Source of the DNA: a virus
Direction: 5' to 3' (one strand)
IMG/VR virus record: IMGVR_UViG_3300048997_000353
Location: 1 to 64,000 of that record
DNA length: 64,000 bases
Positions within the stretch are counted from its first letter, which is position 1. Every line of letters begins with the position of its first letter. Made by a program: the position numbers and the translations under genes. Below are positions 2,583 to 57,877 of the stretch, piece by piece. A model generated the notes under the pieces. That model was not told the DNA's origin. It saw nothing but the letters and a program-made list of their open reading frames with translations, and did not search any database.

Positions 2583-2966
2583 CTAAGGCCTCCAGTTGCG
2601 CATGTAATTTGCCTTCTGTGGATCGATCTTCATTCCATCGTCAACCGGCACACAGCCCGGGAACTTTTCTTCGTACTGTTTGGATAGAAACTCCGCTTCT
2701 TCAATCAGTTGAGCCTGAAATTCCTCTGTGGTGAAAACTTTTTTGTCCACGAGCAATATCAACATCGCATTAAACTCGGCCCGCAGCAGCATGGTTACTT
2801 CGCGGTGATCCCTGACCGCCTGGGCCTCGGGATCATCCTTGACGCGAGTGCCAAGCTGCCAGCCACAAAATATCGACCGCCACTTGCACAGACGGTTCAA
2901 AGCGCTGATGAGTTTGGTTTCCAAGGCGGTCATACGGGTCTGGGCTCCGTTCCCGGGAGATAGCAC
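2583..2966 (-). CDS. Hypothetical protein
   Basis: ORF in operon; true start is probably the internal MTALE. Confidence 0.6.
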   Translation of the reverse strand: MLSPGNGAQTRMTALETKLISALNRLCKWRSIFCGWQLGTRVKDDPEAQAVRDHREVTMLLRAEFNAMLILLVDKKVFTTEEFQAQLIEEAEFLSKQYEEKFPGCVPVDDGMKIDPQKANYMRNWRP

Positions 2967-3358
2967 CGGTCATTTTTCCAAACAACCTTTCCGCTGTTGA
3001 CTGCGTTGTACACTGCGGCCGTGATGGATCCGAAGCTGCCCTGCGGGTTTTTCTCGAAAACCGCATTCATCAATTCCTTCCGGGTGGGCGGCCCGTCCAA
3101 CCTTTTGAGCACCGCCTCGATCTCTCCCCACCAAGTTGCCCGACGCCCATTCTTGACGACTGGAAGAACTTTTTTTCTGGCCACATTGGCCGGCGACTCG
3201 ATCAAGCTGATCGTGTGCTTGAGCTGGTCGACCACCTGTTGCCATCGTTCAATTTCTGCCTCGGCCTGGGTTTTTGCTTGCAGATGCAGATTCAGGGACC
3301 CCTCTGCGTTTTCGAGCTCTTTTCGCAGCAGTGAAGCTGATGCCAGTTCGTATACCAA
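2930..3358 (-). CDS. Coiled-coil plus winged-helix-like protein
   Basis: N-terminal heptads; C-terminal IEAVLKRLDGPPTRKELMNAV...SITAAVYNAVNSGKVVWKNDRCYL resembles a wHTH. Confidence 0.55.
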   Translation of the reverse strand: MVYELASASLLRKELENAEGSLNLHLQAKTQAEAEIERWQQVVDQLKHTISLIESPANVARKKVLPVVKNGRRATWWGEIEAVLKRLDGPPTRKELMNAVFEKNPQGSFGSITAAVYNAVNSGKVVWKNDRCYLPGTEPRPV

Positions 3359-3367
3359 TCTTTCCTC

Positions 3368-4342
3368 CTAAAACAACTCCTTCGCCGCGCGCACTTCGCC
3401 GCGGCCGGCCGGTTCCACTATCTTCCTTGCCATCAATCTGTTCAGGTAGGTATCGCGGCTGGACCTTTTATAATTGGTTACTTCGTCGATCGTTCCACGT
3501 GGAACATTCTTCCCCTCTGCCGCCACAAGGATTTCGAACACTCGCCGTTCACCCTCTGGAAGCCTGCCAAGCCAGTAATCCCGTAGCTCCGGTCCCTCGG
3601 GCAGCGGTTCGAAACCGGATCCCAGCGCGTCGACGCCCTCCTGCGTGGCTATGATCTTGCTCCCTGAAAATGTGACGAACCCCCGCACAGAGAGCCGGTT
3701 AGCATAGGTATCGCGGCTGGACCTTTTATAGCCTGTCAGGATCGAAGCCTGCTTCCGCTCGACACCCTCGGGGTACTGTGCCGCCGCCTTCAACACGGCC
3801 AATTCGCCGGGTGGCAGCTCAGTTGCACCGTGATCCCCATTTCCAGACGGTTCCAGAGGCTTTCGCGCTACAGGGTATGCTGTACGTGCTGGACTCGGCG
3901 CGCGCGGCCCTGGTGCGGCAATGGCGGTCACGACGGGCATATTCGGAGCTTCCGGCAGCTTAATAAGAGCTAATTCCGCGCATTCGCCTGCCGTCTTTGT
4001 CAAATAACGACGCAGACGCTGTACGGTCGCCTCAAGTCCCGTAACCTGCTTACCGAATGCACGCGCGGTCTCGGCGATGGCGCGGTCGATCGCGCGCTTG
4101 TCGGGCACCGCGGGCGCGGCCGGCGCGGCAACGTCGCGAGTGGGTCGCGTCCGGAGCTCCCGCTCCAGGTCCTTAATCTTCTTCTTGAATTCCGAAAACG
4201 TGTGGGCTTCCTCTTCGGCCTGCTTTGGCAGATCGCCCAGCTTGGCAAGCCATTCCCGGACTTTCCCTGTCGGGGGCGGCGGCTTCAGTTCGTACTTGAG
4301 CGCGTCCGAACCATGAGGTGTCTCAATCGGACCGACATGCAC
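3368..4342 (-). CDS. Protein with coiled coil and two tandem wHTH-like repeats (resembles the C-terminal half of phage HerA-like ATPase proteins)
   Basis: GTG 4342 after AAGGAG; duplicated motif T(G/N)YKRSSRDTY(A/L)NRL; no P-loop present. Confidence 0.55.
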   Translation of the reverse strand: MHVGPIETPHGSDALKYELKPPPPTGKVREWLAKLGDLPKQAEEEAHTFSEFKKKIKDLERELRTRPTRDVAAPAAPAVPDKRAIDRAIAETARAFGKQVTGLEATVQRLRRYLTKTAGECAELALIKLPEAPNMPVVTAIAAPGPRAPSPARTAYPVARKPLEPSGNGDHGATELPPGELAVLKAAAQYPEGVERKQASILTGYKRSSRDTYANRLSVRGFVTFSGSKIIATQEGVDALGSGFEPLPEGPELRDYWLGRLPEGERRVFEILVAAEGKNVPRGTIDEVTNYKRSSRDTYLNRLMARKIVEPAGRGEVRAAKELF

Positions 4343-4692
4343 GAGCTCGTCTCCTTCCTGTCGTGAATTTTTTCGATCCAAATGGGGATGCTGCTGCCGA
4401 GGTAGCATTTCTGGCAGATGAAAACTTCCGTGTTGAGCCTGTCGTCCTCAGAAACCACGACGGCCCGATCCGCGTCCGGCGCCATGGCCTCGGCAATCGC
4501 GAGAGCCTTTGGGGTGAGTCCCCAACTCATCATTTTGATCATGCCCAGGACGGAATTGGTTCCTTTGCCAAACAGGGCGAACTTGGATTCGAGAATATAG
4601 AATTGTGGCGCGATTGGACCGCCGCACACATCGCATGGCCTGGTTTCGCTCAGCTTCAAACCGGAAGTTTTCACATCGTCCGTGTCGTTCAT
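4285..4692 (-). CDS. Hypothetical protein with two CxxC motifs
   Basis: CDVC and CQKC; GGAGG RBS before ATG. Confidence 0.6.
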   Translation of the reverse strand: MNDTDDVKTSGLKLSETRPCDVCGGPIAPQFYILESKFALFGKGTNSVLGMIKMMSWGLTPKALAIAEAMAPDADRAVVVSEDDRLNTEVFICQKCYLGSSIPIWIEKIHDRKETSSCMSVRLRHLMVRTRSSTN

Positions 4693-19785: not shown

Positions 19786-21513
19786 TTAGCTCCTCGTCAT
19801 TTCTATTAAAATCGTGACGCGTGTCAGAGTGGCCGCTGAGGTCACATTGAATCCAATCACGTCCCACTGTGCGACCGCTGTTGTCCAGGTCGAGACTCCA
19901 GCCGCAGCGACTGCACCCGATTGCGCAGAGGATAAAGAGATGGGAGCGGATGCGCTAATCTTGTCTGTTGTCGTGTTTGGAATCGTCGGCGCGGATGGCG
20001 GCGCCGACGAAGAATGCTTGTCGATGTCTATGGAGATAGATCCGGACTGATCGGCCATAATCGACCAGCCCACGATGGTTGCGCCGTAGGGAATCTGCAC
20101 GTACCCCTTTACGCCCGTGCTGATGACAGAGGAACCTCCGTCGATCGTTATTCCGATGATCCCGGGGATTGCTGCTTTTGCTGAGGCCAGCACTGTTGCA
20201 GGTGATTGGCCAGCATCCTTGACCAATTTTCCTGTAGTGCCGTCAAACTGCACGAAGTCTGAATCTGTAGCTGAGCCCGGGCCCACCACTTTCGCGGCAA
20301 GATCGGTAACGAGCCCGGTTACCTGTGACTCCGCGATATTGGGGATGTCGGCCGCCGTAAGATTATCGATCGCATCTTCCACGAAAGCGGTTGTCGCTAT
20401 TTTGCCTGAGTCATCGCCCGTTGTTGGCGTTGGCGCCGTTGGCGTGCCGGTGAACACAGGGGATGCTAATGGCGCTTTGAGCGCAAGTGCGGCGGCCGTC
20501 GCCGTTGCCAGTGCATCAACGTATGTTTTCGCCGCTTTTTGTGAAGGGGTTTTGGCGTCACTGTTCGCTGCAAATGTTCCGTCAATGGAAAGGGAAAGGC
20601 CGCCATCTTTAATCAGCTTTCCCGTCGTGCCGTCAAATTGGGCGAAGTCGGAATCGACTGCTGATGCAGGGCCTACAACGAGTGTGGCCGAGGGATTATT
20701 TCCGTTCCAACATTCAGCTTCCCCCGTGATACTCGCGTCCGACGCCACGAGGTACAAATTTGTTGCATCGTAGCCGGTTGGCGACTGCAGCCAGATCACT
20801 CCATTCGAAGTCATCCGAATCAGCACAAGCGTGGGCGTCTGTCCGAGGCCATGCGCTACTGTGAAATTTCCCGGAGATCCCGGGGCCAAAGAAACCCTAT
20901 TGAAATTCAAAGGGCCAAGGGCCGGCACGGAAGCCCAAACAATCGCTTTTGCTGTAATTCCCGCATCAGAAGCGGTGAGATAAATATTGGTTCCATCCCA
21001 CTGTGCCGGCTGGAACCAAACCGCGCCGCTCGAAGTCATCTGCACCAGGGCCAAAGCCGGAGAAGAACCAAGTCCATGCGGGACAGAAAAATCTCCGGGC
21101 GCAGAAGGAGCGAGGGGAACGATGACAGATGGAGCGACAGCGAAACAAACGGCAGTGCCGGTGATTCCCGGGTCGCTCGCCACGAGATAAAGATTCGTTG
21201 CATCAAATGCCGTGGGATTTTGCAGCCAAATGCTTCCCCCAGAACTCATTTGAATGAGAACGAAGGCAGGCGCTGCGGCGAGCCCGTGTGCCACAGTAAA
21301 GTTGCCGGGGGCGCCAGGTGCGAGAGCAATCTCTGTTACTGAAAAAGCTGTACCGCTTCCTCCACCCGCACCACCCCAGCCTGAGTCATAATCTGTTCCT
21401 GAAATTTTGGTAAGTACCTGGCCCAAAGTGCCGCCGGCAGGAACGCCCGCATTGGCCCTCGGTAGCGCACCCTGTACCTGGTGTTCAAGATCAACGAGAT
21501 TTTTGTCAGACAC
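19786..21513 (-). CDS. Tail fibre protein with internal repeats
   Basis: GGTLGQVLTKISGTDYD; three copies of LAP..PG(N/D)F(T/S)VxHGL...NxYLxASD; KAPLASPVFTGTPTAPTP...IATTAFV fibre motif. Confidence 0.85.
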   Translation of the reverse strand: MSDKNLVDLEHQVQGALPRANAGVPAGGTLGQVLTKISGTDYDSGWGGAGGGSGTAFSVTEIALAPGAPGNFTVAHGLAAAPAFVLIQMSSGGSIWLQNPTAFDATNLYLVASDPGITGTAVCFAVAPSVIVPLAPSAPGDFSVPHGLGSSPALALVQMTSSGAVWFQPAQWDGTNIYLTASDAGITAKAIVWASVPALGPLNFNRVSLAPGSPGNFTVAHGLGQTPTLVLIRMTSNGVIWLQSPTGYDATNLYLVASDASITGEAECWNGNNPSATLVVGPASAVDSDFAQFDGTTGKLIKDGGLSLSIDGTFAANSDAKTPSQKAAKTYVDALATATAAALALKAPLASPVFTGTPTAPTPTTGDDSGKIATTAFVEDAIDNLTAADIPNIAESQVTGLVTDLAAKVVGPGSATDSDFVQFDGTTGKLVKDAGQSPATVLASAKAAIPGIIGITIDGGSSVISTGVKGYVQIPYGATIVGWSIMADQSGSISIDIDKHSSSAPPSAPTIPNTTTDKISASAPISLSSAQSGAVAAAGVSTWTTAVAQWDVIGFNVTSAATLTRVTILIEMTRS

Positions 21514-23549
21514 TAGGCCCCCACCGCGTTCAAGTTTTCACCCGGCGCTAGCGCACGCAACAAAACAAATCCTGATCCCGTAAAAGTGTAGTCAGATGGA
21601 TCGACGAAGTCGCCGTTGCGGAAGAGAAGCAGAACCGTGACCGGCCTGTCGATCGTGAAAGTCACATGGTCTCCGGAATCGGTAATCACGAGTGGCACGA
21701 GTATCGGTCCCGCGGACGAACCGCCATTCCCTCCTGTACCGCCGCCGTAATGAGTCACGACGATTGTTCCAATGCGGATGAAACCGGCCGTGTTCCACTT
21801 GGTTTGGTTCGAATCGCAGAACGCGTTGAGTGTCGTACCGATCCCTGTATCACCGATGTGGCCTGGATCCTGTATCGTCACCCAGTACTGCTGCACGTTC
21901 CCGACTCCCGGATCAGCGACGGCAAATGTTCTCGTATTGTAATTTGTGATTACGCCGCTCGGACTGAATGTGGCTGTGCACTGCGCCATACTCACGACAT
22001 ACAACCCGACTGGTTGCGTAAGTGGATTGGCTGGGGAAATCGAATATGTTTCCGCGGCGACGCCACTCACTTGCGAAACAACCCCGGTCACGGTGTACGG
22101 ATAAGCGGGCAGTGTGGCAATGTTCTGCTGTGCCTGCCTGAAAATGTTAAATGCTGCGAATTTGAAATAGAGCGTTTTCCCAATCCACTTGGGATCGAGC
22201 GGAGCCTTGAAGATCGGATCATGCAAGTAAATGAACGCGGTCCGCGTATCAAGAGTTATGTCTGCAGGGAAGGCAACGGAGAATCCTATGCCGCTGTTGC
22301 CGACGACGGTCCAATTTGGCGTATAGGTACCCGCCGTCGCTTGTACTTTGTATGCAGCCTGCGCTGATCCAAAGCTGCCCGCCGCCGAATACCCAGAGGG
22401 CGCGGTCAACGTAGTGTCATTATGAACGAACGTGAATATGAGTCCGTTCGGAGTGGATGTCGTAACCGGCCCGCCCGGCGCCCAGGTGCCGCTGCCTGCC
22501 AAATTATCTCCGGCCACAGCGCTATCGAATGTAGATGCCGGGTCCAGACCACTAATTTCGTTGAACGATGCGCGGATAAACGATGAGCTATTCGCACCGG
22601 GACAGTTGACAGTAATGGTCATCGTACCGCCGGCGGTAATGTCCGCGTACCAGCCCATGCAGAGATAGGATGGGCGCACGTGACTTATGATTGGCTTCCA
22701 CACGTTGCCCAGATTGTCGATGATGTTCGCCGCCGTAAATGGCGGTGGCAAAAATGCGTTCATCGCAACTATTACACGGTTGCCTACCGTAACCGGGCTG
22801 GGGAAAGTGTAGACGTTGGAGCCCGCGCCAGTTGATGTGTGCTCCTGCCCCTGCACAAGTGCTGGGGTCGCGTAGGTGGTGACGCCCGGGGCATGCGCCA
22901 CGCCCATGCCCACAGTTGGTGCTGAATAAACGGCACGCCGGATCTCGTTGCCTGCCCCGGTAGCTTTAAGCGTGTACTTGTTGGCGGCAGCCAGTTGTGC
23001 GGTTGTGTACGCGATTATTTCGTAGGGAATGGCACCGGCGCCCCCTTCCACAACGCACAGCGACACGAATGCGTCTGCCGTCGAGGCTGGGAACGACGCG
23101 AGGGAGCCGAGCGATGCAGTTAAATCCACACTTAGATCATTGGTTGTGTCCGGATCCGCCGCTGCCGGCCACGTACTGCCGGTCACGGTACCCAAGGTGC
23201 TTTTGCCAGGCAAAACACCGATGGATTGGTAGCTGGCTGCTGCGTCGATGGAAAGGAATATTTCACAGCCGCCATAATTTGGATTCTTTGCCGGAATCCC
23301 TATCCATAGCTCGGCTGCATTTCCATCCGTGATCAACCGTAGGATCGGCTCAAAGAAATAGGGCAGGCCAACCGAACCTGGACTGACTTGTGCGTTAATC
23401 GATCCGGGATTTGATCCCTGCGCTGCTGGTAAATGGGGGGAGTTACCTCCATAGAAAAACGGTTCCGCTTCGCAGTCGATCGAGCCATCGTCCGCGAAGC
23501 TTACTTTGGTCAGTCTCCACAACAACAATCCCGTAAGCGATGACGACAT
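21513..23549 (-). CDS. Tail tip/host-specificity protein, C-terminal part
   Basis: YEIIAY..AQL...YTL...RRAVY and IGKTLYFKFAAFNIF motifs typical of GTA/siphovirus tip proteins. Confidence 0.75.
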   Translation of the reverse strand: MSSSLTGLLLWRLTKVSFADDGSIDCEAEPFFYGGNSPHLPAAQGSNPGSINAQVSPGSVGLPYFFEPILRLITDGNAAELWIGIPAKNPNYGGCEIFLSIDAAASYQSIGVLPGKSTLGTVTGSTWPAAADPDTTNDLSVDLTASLGSLASFPASTADAFVSLCVVEGGAGAIPYEIIAYTTAQLAAANKYTLKATGAGNEIRRAVYSAPTVGMGVAHAPGVTTYATPALVQGQEHTSTGAGSNVYTFPSPVTVGNRVIVAMNAFLPPPFTAANIIDNLGNVWKPIISHVRPSYLCMGWYADITAGGTMTITVNCPGANSSSFIRASFNEISGLDPASTFDSAVAGDNLAGSGTWAPGGPVTTSTPNGLIFTFVHNDTTLTAPSGYSAAGSFGSAQAAYKVQATAGTYTPNWTVVGNSGIGFSVAFPADITLDTRTAFIYLHDPIFKAPLDPKWIGKTLYFKFAAFNIFRQAQQNIATLPAYPYTVTGVVSQVSGVAAETYSISPANPLTQPVGLYVVSMAQCTATFSPSGVITNYNTRTFAVADPGVGNVQQYWVTIQDPGHIGDTGIGTTLNAFCDSNQTKWNTAGFIRIGTIVVTHYGGGTGGNGGSSAGPILVPLVITDSGDHVTFTIDRPVTVLLLFRNGDFVDPSDYTFTGSGFVLLRALAPGENLNAVGA

Positions 23550-33232: not shown

Positions 33233-33870
33233 TTATGATTTTCTGTTGAGCAATCCTTCCGCCCAGCGGATCTTTTCCCGGATCGACTCCGGCATATTGG
33301 AAGTTTCCATGCCAGGCATTTCCATCAATCCACTGAAGTTCTTTTCTGTATCTGCGGATTCTTCTTTTTCAGTTTCGGCTGTTTTCTTTGATCCCGTTGC
33401 CGCTTCCCGCCAATATTCCAAGAGATCAATGATTCGGCACAGGCTGGCATCATCGATTTGTTCGAAACTCCAGCCGACGCGCGTGATGATGAGCCCATAG
33501 ATTGTTCGCCAATCTATTGAGTTGGATTTTGCGTCGCGGTCGGCTGCCCCCCCGGGCGTGCGATAAATCCTGATTGCTCCGCAACCTTGACAACGAGATC
33601 TGCCAATTGCGAGACAGAAACCAGATCGGCCAATTCATCGACCGTCAGTTCTGGAACATTTCTTGAAATGGCTGCATGCAAAATTTGCAGCATCCGTTCA
33701 TTGCGCTCAGGCACGTTCTCGACGGTTACCCCTTGATTGATGGTGATCAGTTCCGGCCAAAGCTTTTTCGCCTGCGATGTCGAAAGTGATGGAATCACAA
33801 ATGTGCGATTTCCAATCTTAACTGGCTCGCCTTCATAGTTGGGTTGGCCGTTCCCATTTCCTTCTGACAC
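33233..33870 (-). CDS. Tail assembly chaperone, long form via programmed -1 frameshift (gpGT analogue)
   Basis: CCG GGG GGG at about 33547-33555; the -1 frame reads AADRDAKSNSIDWRTIYGLIITRVGWSFEQIDDASLCRIIDLLEYWREA and joins ORF 33233-33421. Confidence 0.8.
33514..33870 (-). CDS. Tail assembly chaperone, short form (gpG analogue)
   Basis: GTG start after GGAGG; lies between tail tube and tape measure; IGNRTFVIPSL...ILHAAISRNVPELT. Confidence 0.8.
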   Translation of the reverse strand: MSEGNGNGQPNYEGEPVKIGNRTFVIPSLSTSQAKKLWPELITINQGVTVENVPERNERMLQILHAAISRNVPELTVDELADLVSVSQLADLVVKVAEQSGFIARPGGQPTATQNPTQ

Positions 33871-33955
33871 TCGAAACCTCCTTTGAAATCTGCGTTCTTC
33901 CCGCATGCGCAGCCCGCGTCAATCAAGATCACTCACTTAGGGAGTGAGGAAGGTT

Positions 33956-53412: not shown

Positions 53413-55872
53413 TCAAGAAACTTCAGCCTCATCGCTAATGACTAGAGCACACAGGCAATTCACATGCGCTGGATAGGTGGGCACGGATGCGATCGAATAG
53501 GGCGAGCCCGCCTCGAGTTCGTCGCACTCATCATCCAGGTCGTGATTGGAACTCATTTGCCAATCCACGAATTTGACGATTCCTGATTTCCGCCAGGACT
53601 CTAAATTCCCGTTTACTTGCGCGCTCGAGATCTCCGTTCTGGCAATCATGGCGGCGCGCTGGTCGTTGAAGATTCCGGACTTGTCGATCCGCGCTTCGAT
53701 ATCCGCGAGCTTGGGCGTTTTTTCTTCCGCGAACAGTTCCGTCACGATGTCGTGGATTTTTGTTCTGGTGGTTTCACTGATGGCCCACTTCGCATCCGGA
53801 TTGGCAATGAGCTTGCCAGAATTGGTGACTTTCATTCCCACCATTTCGGCGGCGCGCGCCGAAGCCCATTCCTGCGCTGCTTCGTTCATTCCGGAAATCA
53901 TGTCCTCATCGGAAATGTCGAGCTGCAGGATCCCGTTGGACACGCCGGCAATGGCGGCGTCCTGAAAATATTCTTCCGTCTCTTCCGCAATTTTGCGCCA
54001 GTCATCCGCGATCGATCGCAAAATTGCTTTCACTGTATCGTCCGCGGCCGCTTTGTGCAGCGTGGGTTCCATCGTTGCGGCCATGTGTCTATCCGGAAGA
54101 CCGAGAGACTTGGCCAATTGCTTTTTGGTTTTCCGCTTCATGGTCGCAAAGTGATCCTTCACAACTTTTTCCACGGCGTTTTTGGCAATGATGGATTGTG
54201 GCGCCAATCGATCGGGCGTGATTTTGATGCGTGCGCTCTTGCCGAATTTGAGAGAACCGGCGGCTTTGCCTTTGCCTTCTTTGCCTTTACCCGGAGGCGT
54301 CTGCTGTGCGCCAGCGCCGCCCTTCCCAGGTTTCTCCCCTCCTTTGTCACCGCCGGTCTCTTCTTGACCAGGAAGTCCGATTTGTCTGCGCGCTGTACCG
54401 TTTACCGCAGTTGCTTGCTGGTGTCGCTGCAATTCCATCTTGGCCTGCGATTCCAGCGCGGCCTGGCCCAGCAAAACAAATCCAGTACCGGTAATGATGC
54501 CAAGTTGCGAGGCCTCCGGTTCGTTCCGATCGTCCTCACCCAGCCGTTCGCGGCCTTCGTTCGGCGTGATAATTCCGCCGCCCACCAAAATTTTAATCGT
54601 TTCCGCATTTTTTTGCGGATCAGGTTCGGTGAAGGGCTGGAACGCCATCTCATAATCCGGCAGATTGAATTTCTGCTGGATTATGTAATCGATCAAGCCT
54701 TTGATGAAATCGACCCAGGGCAGCGTGCCTTCTTCGACCGATGCTTCCTGCGATTGCTCGGCCGACGCGCGGTTCATCGCGCGGATCAGTCGTTGCGCCG
54801 ACGTGCCAAATCCGAAAGCAATCTTCCGGATATGCATGTCGTCGAATTCGTCCTTGAGCAAGGGCTCTTTGGTGAAAATAATTTGGTCGGGTTTTTCAGC
54901 ATCATTGAAGCCTTGTACCATCCGCCACTGCCGGCGCGCGGCTAGATTGCCCGCCAGTTCCGAATTCATCCAGGTCATCGCTTCCGCGATTTTGTCGGGC
55001 GGCGTGCCCTTGGGCACAACCTGCACAACGCCTGGCGTCGAGCCTTCCGTGTAATAGGCCAAGGTAAAAGCCAGCCGCTGCGCGCCAATTTCAATTTCCG
55101 TTGCGAGCTGCTCGACAGGGGACATTCCGTAGAGTTGGGAAGAAATCGTATTCCGCGGAACGATGTTGCGCGGCTTGTAAATGAGTTGGTCGGTAGTCAG
55201 ATTGACAAGCGGAATGCCCCACCAGTTTTGCGCGTAAGCAGGTTGCGGCGGCATCGGCGTCCAGCCATTCACGTCGATGTACCGCACAATGGAATCGCCG
55301 CGAAGAACGGGCAACTCCACAATTTCTCCCTTGAAGGTTTTGCGAATCAAAATGGCGACGGCATCGAGCACCAGCAGATCGTCCATCAGTGGCCGAAGCC
55401 ATTCCTGCCAGTTGTGTTCCCGGTCCGGGCGTTCGAAGAATTTACTGAGCTTGACGATTTGCGCATCGCCCTCAGCGCGCTTCTTCGCTTCTTTCTTGGT
55501 TTCTCCCGGTTTGCGGCGTAGTTGAACTTCCCAGGGAATTTTCGCGACGGAATCTTTGACATTCTCGATACAGATCCTCGCGAGGGGATACATCGCGAGC
55601 GCCTTGAGCGCCGCCGCCGAATATTCAGCATCCGCGCGCGGCGTATACAGCAAGTTCTGGCCAGCCCAATATTGAAACCCGCGTGGCTCGGTTCCTTCCG
55701 GCGCAATGGGTTTGACAGGTTGAAGGGGAGAATACCAAGTGCCGGCATCGATACCACGGATGGTTTCATCGGGCGGTTGATAGAGCTGACGGCCGTATTG
55801 CTGGAGCGCCTGGACAACAGGGCCAAGGTTGCGGACAGTGATCCCGGAACCGGACCCTGGAGAATTAGCCAT
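53413..55872 (-). CDS. Portal protein fused to a Mu gpF-like minor head domain
   Basis: DDLLVLDA, YGMSPVEQ, YYTEGSTP, IITPNEGRERLG; C-terminal RAAMIARTE...YPAHVNCLC. Confidence 0.92.
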   Translation of the reverse strand: MANSPGSGSGITVRNLGPVVQALQQYGRQLYQPPDETIRGIDAGTWYSPLQPVKPIAPEGTEPRGFQYWAGQNLLYTPRADAEYSAAALKALAMYPLARICIENVKDSVAKIPWEVQLRRKPGETKKEAKKRAEGDAQIVKLSKFFERPDREHNWQEWLRPLMDDLLVLDAVAILIRKTFKGEIVELPVLRGDSIVRYIDVNGWTPMPPQPAYAQNWWGIPLVNLTTDQLIYKPRNIVPRNTISSQLYGMSPVEQLATEIEIGAQRLAFTLAYYTEGSTPGVVQVVPKGTPPDKIAEAMTWMNSELAGNLAARRQWRMVQGFNDAEKPDQIIFTKEPLLKDEFDDMHIRKIAFGFGTSAQRLIRAMNRASAEQSQEASVEEGTLPWVDFIKGLIDYIIQQKFNLPDYEMAFQPFTEPDPQKNAETIKILVGGGIITPNEGRERLGEDDRNEPEASQLGIITGTGFVLLGQAALESQAKMELQRHQQATAVNGTARRQIGLPGQEETGGDKGGEKPGKGGAGAQQTPPGKGKEGKGKAAGSLKFGKSARIKITPDRLAPQSIIAKNAVEKVVKDHFATMKRKTKKQLAKSLGLPDRHMAATMEPTLHKAAADDTVKAILRSIADDWRKIAEETEEYFQDAAIAGVSNGILQLDISDEDMISGMNEAAQEWASARAAEMVGMKVTNSGKLIANPDAKWAISETTRTKIHDIVTELFAEEKTPKLADIEARIDKSGIFNDQRAAMIARTEISSAQVNGNLESWRKSGIVKFVDWQMSSNHDLDDECDELEAGSPYSIASVPTYPAHVNCLCALVISDEAEVS

Positions 55873-56215
55873 TTACTTTTGCCGCCCCCTGCATCGCGCC
55901 CAACTTCAAAAGCTGATCTTCGGTCTTTTCGAGTTCGGTGCGGGGCGTTGCCGCTTCGGCCATGCCCGGCTTCTTGTTCACGTCCACGACAGGTTCCTCA
56001 TAAAACTTCGCACCACAAACACGGCAGGTGTGCTGACACAAAATTTTTATAGTTGTGCCAGAAGAGGCTCTTGCCACACATCTTAAATTTCCTTTGGACG
56101 CGCCGCAGACCGGGCAGCGCGAGTCAGGCCGGATTCGCGCGATGTCACGTTGAGTAACAGGCTTAACTAACCACAAAAGTTGTAGCAGTGCAAGCCTGAT
56201 CCAGTAGAAAAGCAC
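55865..56215 (-). CDS. Zn-ribbon protein
   Basis: CPVC and CRVC; GTG start 6 nt after TAGAAT (possibly leaderless). Confidence 0.6.
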   Translation of the reverse strand: MLFYWIRLALLQLLWLVKPVTQRDIARIRPDSRCPVCGASKGNLRCVARASSGTTIKILCQHTCRVCGAKFYEEPVVDVNKKPGMAEAATPRTELEKTEDQLLKLGAMQGAAKVNG

Positions 56216-56279
56216 GGACGGATTCTACGCGAGAAAAAAAGCAAATACTAGCGTGGGTGTTTGAAGCTGTACCAGAAGG

Positions 56280-56366
56280 TCAGGTTGTGTGCTTTGCTTT
56301 TTCCAGCAGCAACCAGGAAACAACACTGGAAAGAGCCATGAAAATGAGCCCGTCGACGTAAGCCAT
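56280..56366 (-). CDS. 28-aa hydrophobic peptide (type I toxin-like; not in ORF track)
   Basis: GGAGG RBS; MAYVDGLIFMALSSVVSWLLLEKAKHTT, one TM helix plus a basic tail. Confidence 0.55.
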   Translation of the reverse strand: MAYVDGLIFMALSSVVSWLLLEKAKHTT

Positions 56367-56510
56367 GATTCCTCCAAACCTCTGGTGGACGACTGAAAGC
56401 AACGTTGCCGCCCACCAGATCAGATGCTCGTGGAGAGTGGCCGGACTCTCCGATACGAGAATTGTCCGCCGCTGTAGGAATTAGGGGAATCAGGCAAAAG
56501 CCGTATTTTA

Positions 56511-56800: not shown

Positions 56801-56875
56801 TGGAGCGCCTGGCGCGATTCGAACGCGCGACCCGCCTCTTTAGAGAAGGCTACTCTACCGCTGAGTTACAGGCGC
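56801..56875 (-). tRNA. Amber suppressor tRNA (anticodon CUA), canonical cloverleaf
   Basis: GCGCCTG TA ACTC AGCGGTA GAGT A GCCTT CTCTAAA GAGGC GGGTC GCGCG TTCGAAT CGCGC CAGGCGC T CCA. Confidence 0.92.
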
Positions 56876-56908: not shown

Positions 56909-57388
56909 TTATTCCAACGATTCGACCAAGCTGGTGCCCGGTCCGCACTCAAGCGCAGTGAGCTGCCGCCCACTACCGGGCAGAGAATTGGTGCGGACGG
57001 TAGGATTTTCACCCACACTTTCAGCTTTAGAGGCCGACGTGCCTGACACCGCGTCCGCAGTGTATTTCCAAAGTCGGTAGTTCTTCAGCGCCGCGCGCTG
57101 TTCCCCCGTGATCGGAGCCGTGGCAATCGCCGTAAATCCAAAGTTATTATCCGGTTCGGTCCAGAGGTAGTGCGGGATGTAGTTGGCTTGCAGCTTCGCC
57201 ACGACGCGGCGCAAAGCGGCCACACCGGGCAGGCCGACGACGATGATATTGGGAACGAGATCTTCGTTGGGGTGCTGGATGGCGGCGAGATGGAAAACTG
57301 CATGATTGGCTTGAACGATTTGGTGAGCGACAGGAATGTCCTGTCTAACGAAAACGTACACTGCATGGTCAGTGGGAATCTATGTCAT
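56909..57388 (-). CDS. Pth2-like peptidyl-tRNA hydrolase with an in-frame TAG at codon 3
   Basis: YVFVRQD...QIVQANHA...IIVVG...WTEPD...TAIATAP...LKNYRLW matches the PTH2 family pattern; the frame begins ATG ACA TAG ATT CCC ACT GAC CAT GCA GTG TAC. Confidence 0.82.
56932..56981 (-). ncRNA. 50-nt tRNA-like mini RNA with acceptor stem and ACCA end
   Basis: GCCCGGT AGTGGGC GGCA GCTCACT GCGC TTGA GTGC GG ACCGGGC ACCA: perfect 7-bp acceptor stem plus two hairpins. Confidence 0.6.
56989..57058 (-). tRNA. Atypical 70-nt tRNA with CUA anticodon (short D arm, non-canonical T loop)
   Basis: GCGGACG CG GTG TCAGG CAC G TCGGC CTCTAAA GCTGA AAGT GTGGG TGAAAAT CCTAC CGTCCGC A CCA. Confidence 0.8.
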
Positions 57389-57395
57389 GGCGAGC

Positions 57396-57424
57396 ATTCT
57401 CTGCGTGAACGATGGTGAAGTCAA
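57396..57424 (-). promoter_or_regulatory. Sigma70-type promoter predicted to give a leaderless pth2-like mRNA
   Basis: TTGACT-17bp-GAGAAT, then 7 nt to the ATG at 57388; no Shine-Dalgarno sequence. Confidence 0.65.
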
Positions 57425-57425
57425 C

Positions 57426-57454
57426 AAAAAAAAGGGCGAGCGTTTCTCGCGCCC
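57426..57454 (-). terminator. Rho-independent terminator
   Basis: GGGCGCGAG AAACG CTCGCCC followed by T8 on the minus strand. Confidence 0.8.
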
Positions 57455-57483
57455 GCCCTAAACCAACACCCCATTTTCGAAAG

Positions 57484-57768
57484 TTATGCCGAGGCTCCCC
57501 TAGCCTTGGCTCGCAGTTCTTGCTCCGCGTGGATCGCTGGCTCCGCGTCCTGCAGTGGCCGAATAATCCAGAGCGTGCGCTGTCCGGCGGGAACGAAGCT
57601 CGCGATCGAATGGCCTTCCTTGCAGCCAACCGTGAAAGCCTGGCTGCCGTAGACAACTTCGAAATTGCCTTGTTCACCGTCCAGGATGTCGGCCAAGTTT
57701 GGATTGTTGCTGACGTAAATTCCTGTCCGTTGCTGCTGTTGTTGCAATGGGGTTTGTCGATCTAACAT
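57484..57768 (-). CDS. Hypothetical protein
   Basis: GAGGTG RBS; 94 aa; followed by a terminator. Confidence 0.65.
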   Translation of the reverse strand: MLDRQTPLQQQQQRTGIYVSNNPNLADILDGEQGNFEVVYGSQAFTVGCKEGHSIASFVPAGQRTLWIIRPLQDAEPAIHAEQELRAKARGASA

Positions 57769-57877
57769 TGGTGTTCACCTCTCAGTTTAGGCTGCGCAAC
57801 CCTCAAGGCTGCCTACGGGAAAGATGGCACAGTTCCATATGCAAGGGAATCGGGTGCCTGTTGAAACGCTGTGGAAA

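What the first reader, a model, noticed from the sequence alone, without database searches (positions are those of the whole stretch)
56989..57058. Non-canonical 70-nt tRNA(CUA) with tRNA-Pyl-like miniaturisation
Seen: 3-bp D stem with a 5-nt loop, C instead of U8, T loop UGAAAAU lacking UUC, anticodon loop CUCUAAA, A73 and encoded CCA. Established: a small D loop, loss of TpsiC and a CUCUAAA loop are tRNA-Pyl traits, but tRNA-Pyl has a 6-bp anticodon stem and G73. No pylS/pylBCD was recognised in the window. Its charging enzyme is unknown. It may be a dedicated suppressor, a decoy or the substrate of the neighbouring hydrolase.
Basis: partly seen in the sequence, partly recalled or inferred. 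Interest (0 to 1): 0.75.

Follow-up and report, generated by a model that had tools for sequence, protein, structure and literature searches.

The report
Shrunken amber-suppressor tRNA in a phage
A soil phage that otherwise uses the normal genetic code carries a real but unusually shrunken tRNA that reads the UAG stop codon. It sits inside a conserved three-RNA cassette behind a small tRNA-hydrolase-like gene whose own third codon is UAG, so it is a phage suppressor tRNA, not a pyrrolysine tRNA.

Summary
Rfam's tRNA model scores it at 41 bits (cut-off 29); ARAGORN finds it only at a lowered threshold.

It is not an orphan. The window is part of a 108-kb standard-code phage. The tRNA lies in the 3' tail of a PTH2-fold gene that starts ATG-ACA-TAG behind a sigma-70 promoter. 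Behind it come a 50-nt CCA-ending mini tRNA-like RNA and a canonical tRNA(CUA).

The same cassette recurs in about 20 distinct phage loci. Every locus with the early TAG and readable downstream sequence carries a CUA-bearing tRNA; loci without the TAG have none. The homologous "class A" tRNAs covary strongly. The window's copy keeps 21 of 21 stem pairs, some through compensatory changes of its own. It is the only copy with C8-G9 and a 3-5-nt D loop, and one of two with A73.

tRNA-Pyl membership fails on anticodon stem, connector, variable loop and discriminator, and the record has no pylS or pylD.

Best reading (0.55): an active amber suppressor, redundant with the canonical neighbour. A decaying copy or a non-decoding role remain possible. 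This scan had already noted the amber-gated Pth2 cassette in other genomes; I found no paper describing it.

The parts
57433..57459 (-). Intrinsic-terminator-like hairpin with a T run that insulates the cassette from upstream genes
   Evidence: 10-bp stem (8 G-C pairs) followed by TTTTTTTGTT.
57396..57424 (-). Sigma-70-type promoter TTGACT-17-GAGAAT, ending 7 nt before the ATG, so the mRNA is predicted to be leaderless
   Evidence: The same TTGACA / 16-18 nt / -10-like hexamer lies 6-7 nt (9-10 nt in two) before the ATG in most related loci. The transcription start is inferred, not measured.
56909..57388 (-). PTH2-fold gene read from ATG 57388. TAG is codon 3 (57380-57382). The PTH2-like domain spans 57071-57361. 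There is no stop before the tRNA, and the frame runs through the tRNA and the mini-RNA to TAA at 56909-56911
   Evidence: frame and TAG. AlphaFold2 model, pLDDT 91. Foldseek top hits are all Pth2: 2zv3, 1wn2, 3erj, 1q7s, 1xty, TM 0.66-0.78. Pfam PF01981 is the top family in 13 of 24 members but below its cut-off.
56989..57058 (-). The finding: a 70-nt non-canonical 'class A' tRNA(CUA) with a reduced D arm, T loop UGAAAAU, A73 and an encoded CCA
   Evidence: (R1 model, 50 bits).
56932..56981 (-). 50-nt CCA-ending mini tRNA-like RNA. It has a 7-bp acceptor-like stem GCCCGGU/ACCGGGC, a 7-bp hairpin with a GGCA loop, a short T-arm-like hairpin (loop UUGAGU), then A and CCA
   Evidence: MFE -28.2, z -2.8. 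The same element follows the class A tRNA in 11 other loci, with covarying stems. No Rfam match.
56801..56875 (-). Canonical 'class B' tRNA(CUA) with U73, D loop AGCGGUA and T loop UUCGAAU
   Evidence: ARAGORN and Rfam at 60.5 bits. U73 class B homologues occupy the same position in 10 other loci.

Best explanation
The 70-nt RNA is the window's copy of a conserved family of phage amber-suppressor tRNAs, here called 'class A'. This family is embedded in the 3' end of a promoter-proximal, probably leaderless, PTH2-fold gene whose third codon is UAG.

Proposed course of events, all inferred:
1. Host RNA polymerase transcribes the cassette from the TTGACT-17-GAGAAT promoter as one RNA: gene, class A tRNA, mini tRNA-like RNA, class B tRNA.
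2. RNase P and 3' trimming release the CCA-ending RNAs.
3. A host aminoacyl-tRNA synthetase charges the class A tRNA. The amino acid is unknown.
4. The charged tRNA competes with RF1 at UAG. This opens, among other sites, codon 3 of its own upstream gene, so the hydrolase-like protein is made only while suppression is active.

In this phage the copy has lost 6 nt of its D loop and changed U8-A9 to C8-G9, giving a compact elbow like that of tRNA-Pyl or mitochondrial tRNAs. Its homologues mostly have G73; it has A73. It probably still works, alongside the canonical class B tRNA(CUA) 113 nt downstream. It is not a tRNA-Pyl.
For: **Shown**
- tRNA-model matches.
- Syntenic homologues sit directly behind the same gene in 15 other loci.
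- Covariation is strong. Among the 16 class A tRNAs, 17 of the 21 stem pairs show compensatory double changes and non-pairs are rare. Over all 45 tRNAs, 98% of cells are paired against 69% in shuffles, with a covariation score of 0.745 against 0.176.
- The window's copy keeps 21 of 21 pairs. Its acceptor pair 5 (A-U) is unique and pair 4 (G-C) is rare, so pairing was maintained after it diverged.
- Its anticodon loop CUCUAAA is identical to those of L005, L008 and L016, and the anticodon stems are near-identical in L005 and L008.
- Its odd T loop UGAAAAU recurs in L001, L014 and L029. It is also implied by 'VGENP' in the tails of three further proteins. So this T loop is a family variant, not decay.
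- ATG-NNN-TAG (ATG-N12-TAG in two loci) opens the gene, always in frame, in 20 distinct loci. Every one of these with readable downstream sequence has a CUA-bearing tRNA. The 5 loci without the TAG have none.
- Two TAG losses nested among the TAG-bearing loci (L001, L009) each coincide with a changed class A anticodon loop: CAUUGAA and UUUCUAA.
- Seven TAG-bearing loci carry class A as their only detected CUA tRNA. One of them, L014, has the UGAAAAU T loop.
- Cultured phages GAP32 and Arash also have an early in-frame TAG in the homologue and a tRNA(CUA) 1-3 kb away.

**From the literature**
Against: - The window's copy is the family outlier. It is the only one of 16 with C8-G9 and a 3-5-nt D loop, and one of two with A73.
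- Of the class A homologues that the Rfam scans listed, it has the lowest tRNA score.
- ARAGORN rejects it at default settings.
- A canonical tRNA(CUA) next to it could do all the suppression, so selection on decoding by this copy may be relaxed.
- Its closest relative by the PTH2 tree, L015 (weak support), has no class A tRNA. L015 has two mini tRNA-like RNAs in its place.
- No expression or aminoacylation data exist.
- The charging enzyme and the amino acid are unknown. Similarity to the tRNAs of an Acidobacteriota MAG was ambiguous.
- Apart from codon 3 of the adjacent gene, no other in-frame TAG in the phage had homology support.
Confidence: 0.55

Rival explanations
1. It is a decaying duplicate. 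The class A tRNA of this lineage has become redundant to the canonical class B tRNA(CUA). It is losing its elbow (D-loop deletion, C8, G9, A73) and no longer decodes. The remaining pairing is kept only because the sequence is also the 3' tail of the ORF or a processing signal.
For: Its features are unique among the 16 homologues. Among the class A homologues the Rfam scans listed it scores lowest, and ARAGORN fails at default. An intact class B tRNA lies 113 nt away. The nearest relative, L015, lacks a class A tRNA altogether.
Against: All 21 stem pairs, U33, A37, the CUA anticodon and the CCA end are intact. The acceptor stem carries compensatory changes specific to this copy, which decay would not produce. 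The T loop variant is shared with loci where class A is the only CUA tRNA (L014).
Confidence: 0.25
2. It has a non-decoding role. Together with the 50-nt mini tRNA-like RNA, it is an acceptor-stem/CCA RNA. Its job would be to serve as substrate, decoy or cofactor for the PTH2-fold enzyme or for a host factor that acts on tRNA 3' ends, or to mark a processing site that converts the upstream message into a non-stop mRNA.
For: - In the loci that carry a class A tRNA, the ORF has no stop before it, even across spacers of 18-44 codons. My estimate of the chance probability over six loci is about 6e-4.
- The loci without tRNAs stop 2-15 codons after the domain.
- A conserved CCA-ending minihelix that cannot decode sits in the same array.
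- L015 has two such minihelices in place of class A.
- The acceptor stem and CCA are kept throughout, while the elbow varies freely.
Against: Across loci the CUA anticodon tracks the TAG in the gene, and it changes when the TAG is lost. That is hard to explain if the anticodon were irrelevant. A full anticodon arm with U33 and A37 is retained in the window's copy.
Confidence: 0.15
3. It is a true tRNA-Pyl, or an orthogonal tRNA charged by a dedicated non-canonical synthetase.
For: CUA anticodon, small D loop without a clear G18G19, T loop without T-psi-C, and G1:C72.
Against: The anticodon stem has 5 bp, there are two connector nucleotides, the variable region has 4 nt and the discriminator is A73. 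These fail the defining features in PMC7609411. No PylS C-terminal domain or PylD is present in the 108-kb record (the record is about 71% complete). The homologues are normal-sized tRNAs.
Confidence: 0.02
4. It is a chance tRNA-like fold inside a protein-coding tail.
For: The 150-aa ORF reads through it. The MFE z-score is only -1.7.
Against: Rfam E is 2.4e-5. The position is syntenic, the stems covary, and the changes preserve RNA pairs rather than amino acids.
Confidence: 0.03

Closest known systems
Phage-encoded TAG suppressor tRNAs of stop-codon-recoded phages, including 'code-change modules' (Borges et al., bioRxiv 10.1101/2021.08.26.457843)
   Same: A phage-borne tRNA(CUA) is expected to be charged by a host synthetase and to override UAG. 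Those authors anticipated that some phage suppressors would be non-canonical enough to escape detection.
   Different: This phage is not recoded. TAG ends 26 of 155 ORFs, and long genes are intact under code 11. It has high GC (54%) and comes from soil. The only supported in-frame TAG is codon 3 of the adjacent PTH2-fold gene. The tRNA is nested in that gene's 3' end. No aaRS or RF accompanies it (for RF).
Orphan tRNA(CUA) genes of standard-code jumbo phages, for example Xanthomonas phage XacN1 (PMC5852040)
   Same: A standard-code phage with two CUA suppressors and a peptidyl-tRNA hydrolase gene. The XacN1 authors could not find a target for the suppressors.
   Different: Here a concrete target is visible: the amber codon at the start of the PTH2-fold gene. 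The same holds in cultured GAP32 and Arash. I did not examine XacN1 itself.
tRNA-Pyl (review PMC7609411)
   Same: CUA anticodon, a shrunken D loop, loss of T-psi-C, G1:C72, and a compact elbow compatible with the normal translation machinery.
   Different: 5-bp rather than 6-bp anticodon stem, two connector nucleotides, 4-nt variable region, A73, no pyl genes. It descends from a normal-sized phage tRNA family.
Type II mitochondrial tRNAs (PMC7609411)
   Same: The canonical D-loop/T-loop contacts (G18G19 with psi55-C56) are missing, while the four arms are kept.
   Different: Bacteriophage origin. The stems are GC-rich and fully paired, and the CCA is encoded.
Archaeal/eukaryotic-type peptidyl-tRNA hydrolase Pth2 in jumbo phages (PMC7824862)
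   Same: The neighbouring gene has the Pth2 fold. Pth2 genes are known in phages and have been linked to tRNA repair and ribosome rescue.
   Different: This branch is below Pfam's threshold, starts with an amber codon, has no stop before the tRNA, and has never been assayed.

Membership tests
tRNA (Rfam RF00005) | Score at or above the curated gathering threshold (29 bits) over the full model | tested here: met
   41.3 bits, model positions 1-71 of 71.
tRNA (Rfam RF00005) | Cloverleaf with a 7-bp acceptor stem, 5-bp anticodon stem, 7-nt anticodon loop with U33 and a purine at 37, and a 5-bp T stem | tested here: met
   ARAGORN drawing at -ps95. 21 of 21 pairs are standard.
tRNA (Rfam RF00005) | Canonical elbow: U8, G18G19 in the D loop, T54-psi55-C56 in the T loop | tested here: not met
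   C8, D loop UCAGG or CAG, T loop UGAAAAU. This makes it non-canonical but does not exclude tRNA function; compare tRNA-Pyl.
tRNA (Rfam RF00005) | Expressed, processed and aminoacylated | not testable with these tools
   Needs tRNA-seq or acid-urea Northern blots.
tRNA-Pyl | CUA anticodon | tested here: met
   Anticodon at 57030-57028.
tRNA-Pyl | 6-bp anticodon stem (PMC7609411) | tested here: not met
   5 bp, UCGGC/GCUGA. G26 and A44 do not form a standard pair.
tRNA-Pyl | Three-nucleotide variable arm (PMC7609411) | tested here: not met
   Four nucleotides (AAGU) lie between the anticodon stem and the T stem.
tRNA-Pyl | Zero or one nucleotide between the acceptor and D stems (PMC7609411) | tested here: not met
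   Two nucleotides, C8 and G9.
tRNA-Pyl | G73 discriminator with G1:C72 (PMC7609411) | tested here: not met
   A73 at 56992. G1:C72 is present.
tRNA-Pyl | Co-occurrence with pylS and pylBCD | tested here: not met
   No PylS C-terminal domain (TIGR02367) or PylD (TIGR03911) in the 108-kb record. The record is about 71% complete and the host is unknown.
Class A tRNA of the amber-gated PTH2 cassette (defined here) | Lies directly behind, and inside the open frame of, a PTH2-fold gene that has an early in-frame TAG | tested here: met
   The tRNA starts 3 codons after the NYRLW motif and the TAG is codon 3.
Class A tRNA of the amber-gated PTH2 cassette (defined here) | Sequence and structure homology to the other members | tested here: met
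   Model R1 scores it 50 bits (it was part of the seed). The anticodon arm is near-identical to L005 and L008, the T arm to L029 and L014, and the D stem GUG/CAC matches L010.
Class A tRNA of the amber-gated PTH2 cassette (defined here) | Family norm of U8-A9, a D loop of 5-11 nt, and G73 in 13 of 16 members | tested here: not met
   C8-G9, a 3-5-nt D loop and A73. It is a derived variant of the family.
Stop-codon-recoded (code 15) phage | Many genes interrupted by in-frame TAG, and TAG rarely used as a stop | tested here: not met
   Coding fraction is 0.91 under code 11, and TAG ends 26 of 155 ORFs. Read-through candidates had no homology across the TAG.

The most novel reading that the evidence does not exclude
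The cassette may be a self-contained RNA-enzyme system rather than a decoding aid. In this reading the PTH2-fold protein works on, or together with, the CCA-ending RNAs encoded in its own message: the class A tRNA, the 50-nt minihelix and the class B tRNA. The amber codon and the missing stop codon would tie its synthesis to their processing and charging. The window's 70-nt tRNA would then be an evolutionary intermediate between a full tRNA and a minihelix. The system's purpose could be counter-defence against host factors that attack tRNA acceptor ends or aminoacyl-tRNAs.
Probability: 0.15. Interest if true: 0.8.

Novelty: new variant of a known kind. Interest (0 to 1): 0.6.

Why it matters
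Phage suppressor tRNAs in genomes that use the standard code have been a loose end. The XacN1 authors, for example, could find no target for theirs (PMC5852040). This locus helps in two ways.

- **A concrete target.** It shows a conserved amber codon at the start of a Pth2-like gene that is physically fused to the tRNAs. The 70-nt copy also shows how far such a tRNA can shrink while keeping every stem.
- **Detection.** Default tRNA finders miss it. That supports the suspicion in Borges et al. that non-canonical phage suppressors are under-counted.

If the tRNA is active, a compact natural amber suppressor that host enzymes still accept would also interest people who engineer the genetic code. 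The cassette has homologues in cultured phages of Cronobacter and Salmonella, so it can be tested at the bench.

Tried and rejected
The DNA behind proteins P0002-P0007 could not be fetched, so I used the search for related loci instead.
- **Exact and degenerate DNA patterns** for the window's anticodon-T-arm found nothing in viral contigs. No second copy of the miniaturised form was found.
- **blastn of the 6-kb region** against GenBank phages matched only the tRNA-Ala.
- **RNA evidence:** no RNA holder was listed. The only holder is a soil DNA run that may be the source sample.
- **Amino-acid identity** by similarity to the 43 tRNAs of an Acidobacteriota MAG was ambiguous: Val, Met and Arg at 0.64-0.66 for the window's class A, and Gly-like at 0.75-0.76 for class B. 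That MAG's list lacked Trp, Phe and Ile tRNAs.
- **Global TAG recoding** was rejected.
- **Read-through candidates elsewhere** had no family spanning the TAG: 2930-4408, 33325-33906, 21336-23549, 55865-56377, 57369-57830 and genome 74714-76924. ARPP-1 and phrog_7947 are complete before the TAG.
- **Re-initiation at the codon after TAG** was considered and judged unlikely. That codon is GTA in L010, and the CUA tRNAs co-vary with the TAG.
- **A lambda-bar-like two-codon minigene** (AUG-ACA-UAG) was considered. Two loci have five codons before the TAG, so it is not general.
- **No release-factor domain** was found in the record.
- **Complex prediction** was not used, because it takes no RNA.

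Full report
**1. The observation**

Read on the minus strand, window 57058 to 56989 gives a 70-nt cloverleaf:
- acceptor stem GCGGACG/CGUCCGC, then C8 and G9;
- D arm GUG-UCAGG-CAC, then G26;
- anticodon arm UCGGC-CUCUAAA-GCUGA;
- variable region AAGU;
- T arm GUGGG-UGAAAAU-CCUAC;
- A73 and an encoded CCA.

Rfam's tRNA model scores it 41.3 bits against a cut-off of 29, with E 2.4e-5 for the whole window. ARAGORN misses it at default and calls it tRNA(cta) at -ps95. The cloverleaf is 1.4 kcal/mol above the MFE fold.

**2. Surroundings**

The window is the first 64 kb of a 108,441-bp IMG/VR phage record that CheckV estimates as 71% complete. Genes in the window run almost entirely on the minus strand, and a portal gene lies at 53413-55872. 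The phage uses the standard code:
- long ORFs are intact under code 11;
- the coding fraction is 0.91;
- TAG ends 26 of 155 ORFs;
- read-through candidates have no family spanning the TAG.

A second, canonical tRNA(CUA) lies 113 nt downstream at 56801-56875.

The ORF upstream of the finding (56909-57361) reads through the finding without a stop. Its first ~97 residues have the Pth2 fold:
- the AlphaFold2 model has pLDDT 91;
- all top Foldseek hits are Pth2 structures: 2zv3, 1wn2, 3erj, Bit1 (1q7s) and 1xty, with TM 0.66-0.78;
- Pfam PF01981 is the top family in 13 of 24 members, though below its threshold.

Nine codons upstream, in frame, the sequence reads ATG-ACA-TAG-ATT (57388-57377). A TTGACT-17-GAGAAT promoter ends 7 nt before that ATG. 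A strong terminator precedes the promoter.

**3. Related loci**

A profile of the PTH2-like protein retrieved 31 loci from viral, metagenome and genome collections. About 25 are distinct.

- **Early TAG.** Twenty distinct loci (the window plus 19 retrieved loci) open ATG-NNN-TAG, or ATG-N12-TAG in two. The TAG is always in frame with the domain, even though the number of codons between them varies from 5 to 19.
- **Promoter.** Most have TTGACA, 16-18 nt and a -10-like hexamer 6-7 nt before the ATG. Three have a Shine-Dalgarno sequence instead.
- **CUA tRNAs.** Every TAG-bearing locus with readable downstream sequence has at least one CUA-bearing tRNA behind the gene.
- **Loci without the TAG.** Five loci lack it and have no CUA tRNA. 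In L001 the first tRNA's anticodon loop is CAUUGAA. In L009 it is UUUCUAA. L012, L013 and L030 have no tRNA behind the gene, and their ORFs stop 2-15 codons after the domain.
- **Tree.** On a tree of the protein, the TAG label needs about three changes. L001 and L009 are nested among TAG-bearing loci, with weak support.

The tRNAs fall into two classes:
- **Class A** comes first and is nested in the ORF tail. It has G73 in 13 of 16 members. Its D loops often lack GG and its T loops vary.
- **Class B** comes later and has U73.

Seven TAG-bearing loci have class A as their only detected CUA tRNA. Four have only class B.

**4. Is the window's copy a maintained tRNA?**

Among the 16 class A tRNAs, 17 of the 21 stem pairs show compensatory double changes and non-pairs are rare. 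Over all 45 tRNAs of these loci, 98% of cells pair against 69% in shuffles. Sliding the partner columns drops pairing to 37-46%.

Evidence that the window's copy is maintained:
- It keeps 21 of 21 pairs.
- Its acceptor pairs 4 and 5 (G-C and A-U) are rare or unique in the family, so pairing was restored after divergence.
- Its T loop UGAAAAU is shared with L001, L014 and L029. In L014 that tRNA is the only CUA tRNA.
- Its D stem GUG/CAC matches L010. The difference between them is a D loop of 5 nt against 11 nt.

Evidence that it is the outlier:
- It is the only member with C8-G9.
- It has the smallest D loop.
- It is one of two members with A73.
- Its nearest relative on the protein tree, L015, has no class A tRNA. 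L015 has two CCA-ending minihelices instead.

**5. A third RNA**

Between the two tRNAs, at 56932-56981, lies a 50-nt RNA. It has a 7-bp acceptor-like stem, a 7-bp hairpin with a GGCA loop, and a short T-arm-like hairpin, and it ends in ACCA. The same element follows the class A tRNA in 11 other loci, with different but paired stems. Rfam has no match for it.

**6. Mechanism**

*Shown:* the cassette architecture, the covariation, and the co-occurrence of the TAG with CUA tRNAs.

*Inferred:* the events run in this order.
1. The cassette is transcribed as one leaderless RNA.
2. The RNAs are released by processing.
3. A host synthetase charges them.
4. They read UAG, including codon 3 of the upstream gene.

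This would couple synthesis of the hydrolase-like protein to suppressor activity. The base after the TAG is A in all but one TAG-bearing locus. From my own knowledge of classical context studies in enteric bacteria, an A after UAG favours suppression.

In the loci that carry a class A tRNA, the ORF has no stop before it. Excising the tRNA would therefore leave a non-stop message. What that does is unknown.

**7. Comparison with known kinds**

The closest known kinds are the suppressor tRNAs of recoded phages and the target-less CUA tRNAs of standard-code jumbo phages such as XacN1.

tRNA-Pyl membership fails on four defining features and on the absence of pyl genes. The compact elbow works like that of tRNA-Pyl or of type II mitochondrial tRNAs.

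Cultured phages GAP32 (MAQ-TAG-NEKTW) and Arash (ML-TAG-NKHW) have the amber-interrupted homologue and a tRNA(CUA) 1-3 kb away.

My paper searches found no description of the amber-gated Pth2 cassette. This scan has noted it in at least 28 other genomes. I used those notes as leads only. I found the TAG/CUA co-occurrence myself before reading them, and checked the cultured-phage claim myself afterwards.

**8. Verdict**

It is a real and structurally maintained tRNA, and the most reduced known member of a conserved phage suppressor family. It is not a tRNA-Pyl. Whether it still decodes is open. I put an active suppressor at 0.55, decay at 0.25 and a non-decoding role at 0.15.

Noticed in passing
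window 56932-56981 (-); also L003:3366-3417, L008:3372-3423, L014:507-559, L023:1867-1923 and others: A conserved 50-57-nt CCA-ending mini tRNA-like RNA lies between the two tRNAs. It has an acceptor-like stem, a hairpin with a GGCA loop and a short T-like hairpin (loop UUGAGU). In L014, L023 and L029 the first hairpin has a 7-9-nt loop containing CUAG. It has no Rfam match, and its stems covary.
   Followed up: partly
window 56909-57388 (-) and 19 related loci: In the loci that carry a class A tRNA, the PTH2-like ORF has no stop codon before it, even across spacers of 18-44 codons. It ends inside or beyond the tRNA, often at the TGA in the mini-RNA's UUGAGU loop. The loci without a tRNA stop 2-15 codons after the domain.
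   Followed up: partly
L015:1801-1927: The window's nearest relative by the PTH2 tree has two tandem CCA-ending minihelices, with GCAA and GUAA tetraloops, where the class A tRNA would be. A tRNA(UUU) with U73 and a class B tRNA(CUA) follow them.
   Followed up: partly
L010:3438-3511 and L011:3504-3578: The class B tRNAs in these loci have 8-nt anticodon loops (CUUCUAGU and CCUCUAGU). This is the shape of a quadruplet-reading or frameshift-suppressor tRNA that could read UAGA or UAGG.
   Followed up: no
L006:3431-3536, L014:561-666, L016:1087-1194: The second-position tRNAs in these loci carry an insertion of about 30 nt in the D-loop region. Their anticodon loops are odd (UAUUUAA, UUAUUAA, CAUUGAG).
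   Followed up: no
L001:3442-3514, L017:1902-1976, L016:1087-1194: Several cassette tRNAs have A instead of the near-universal U at position 33 (loops CAUUGAA, UAUAUAA, CAUUGAG).
   Followed up: no
genome 78002-78077 (+), beyond the window; window 57383-57385: The phage encodes a tRNA-Thr(UGU), which reads ACA. ACA is codon 2 of the amber-gated gene here and in most related loci. This may be coincidence.
   Followed up: no
L076 (Cronobacter phage GAP32, 290153-290443) and L077 (Salmonella phage Arash, 50260-50544): Cultured phages carry the PTH2-like homologue with an early in-frame TAG, inside their tRNA arrays, and a tRNA(CUA) with A73 lies 1-3 kb away. GenBank annotates only truncated ORFs or nothing at these sites.
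   Followed up: partly
L031 (DATGHX010000002.1, 103 kb): A contig binned into a Candidatus Angelobacter MAG has the cassette region identical in sequence to two ~102-kb phage contigs (L009, L025). It is probably a phage genome, which gives a weak hint that the host is an acidobacterium.
   Followed up: no
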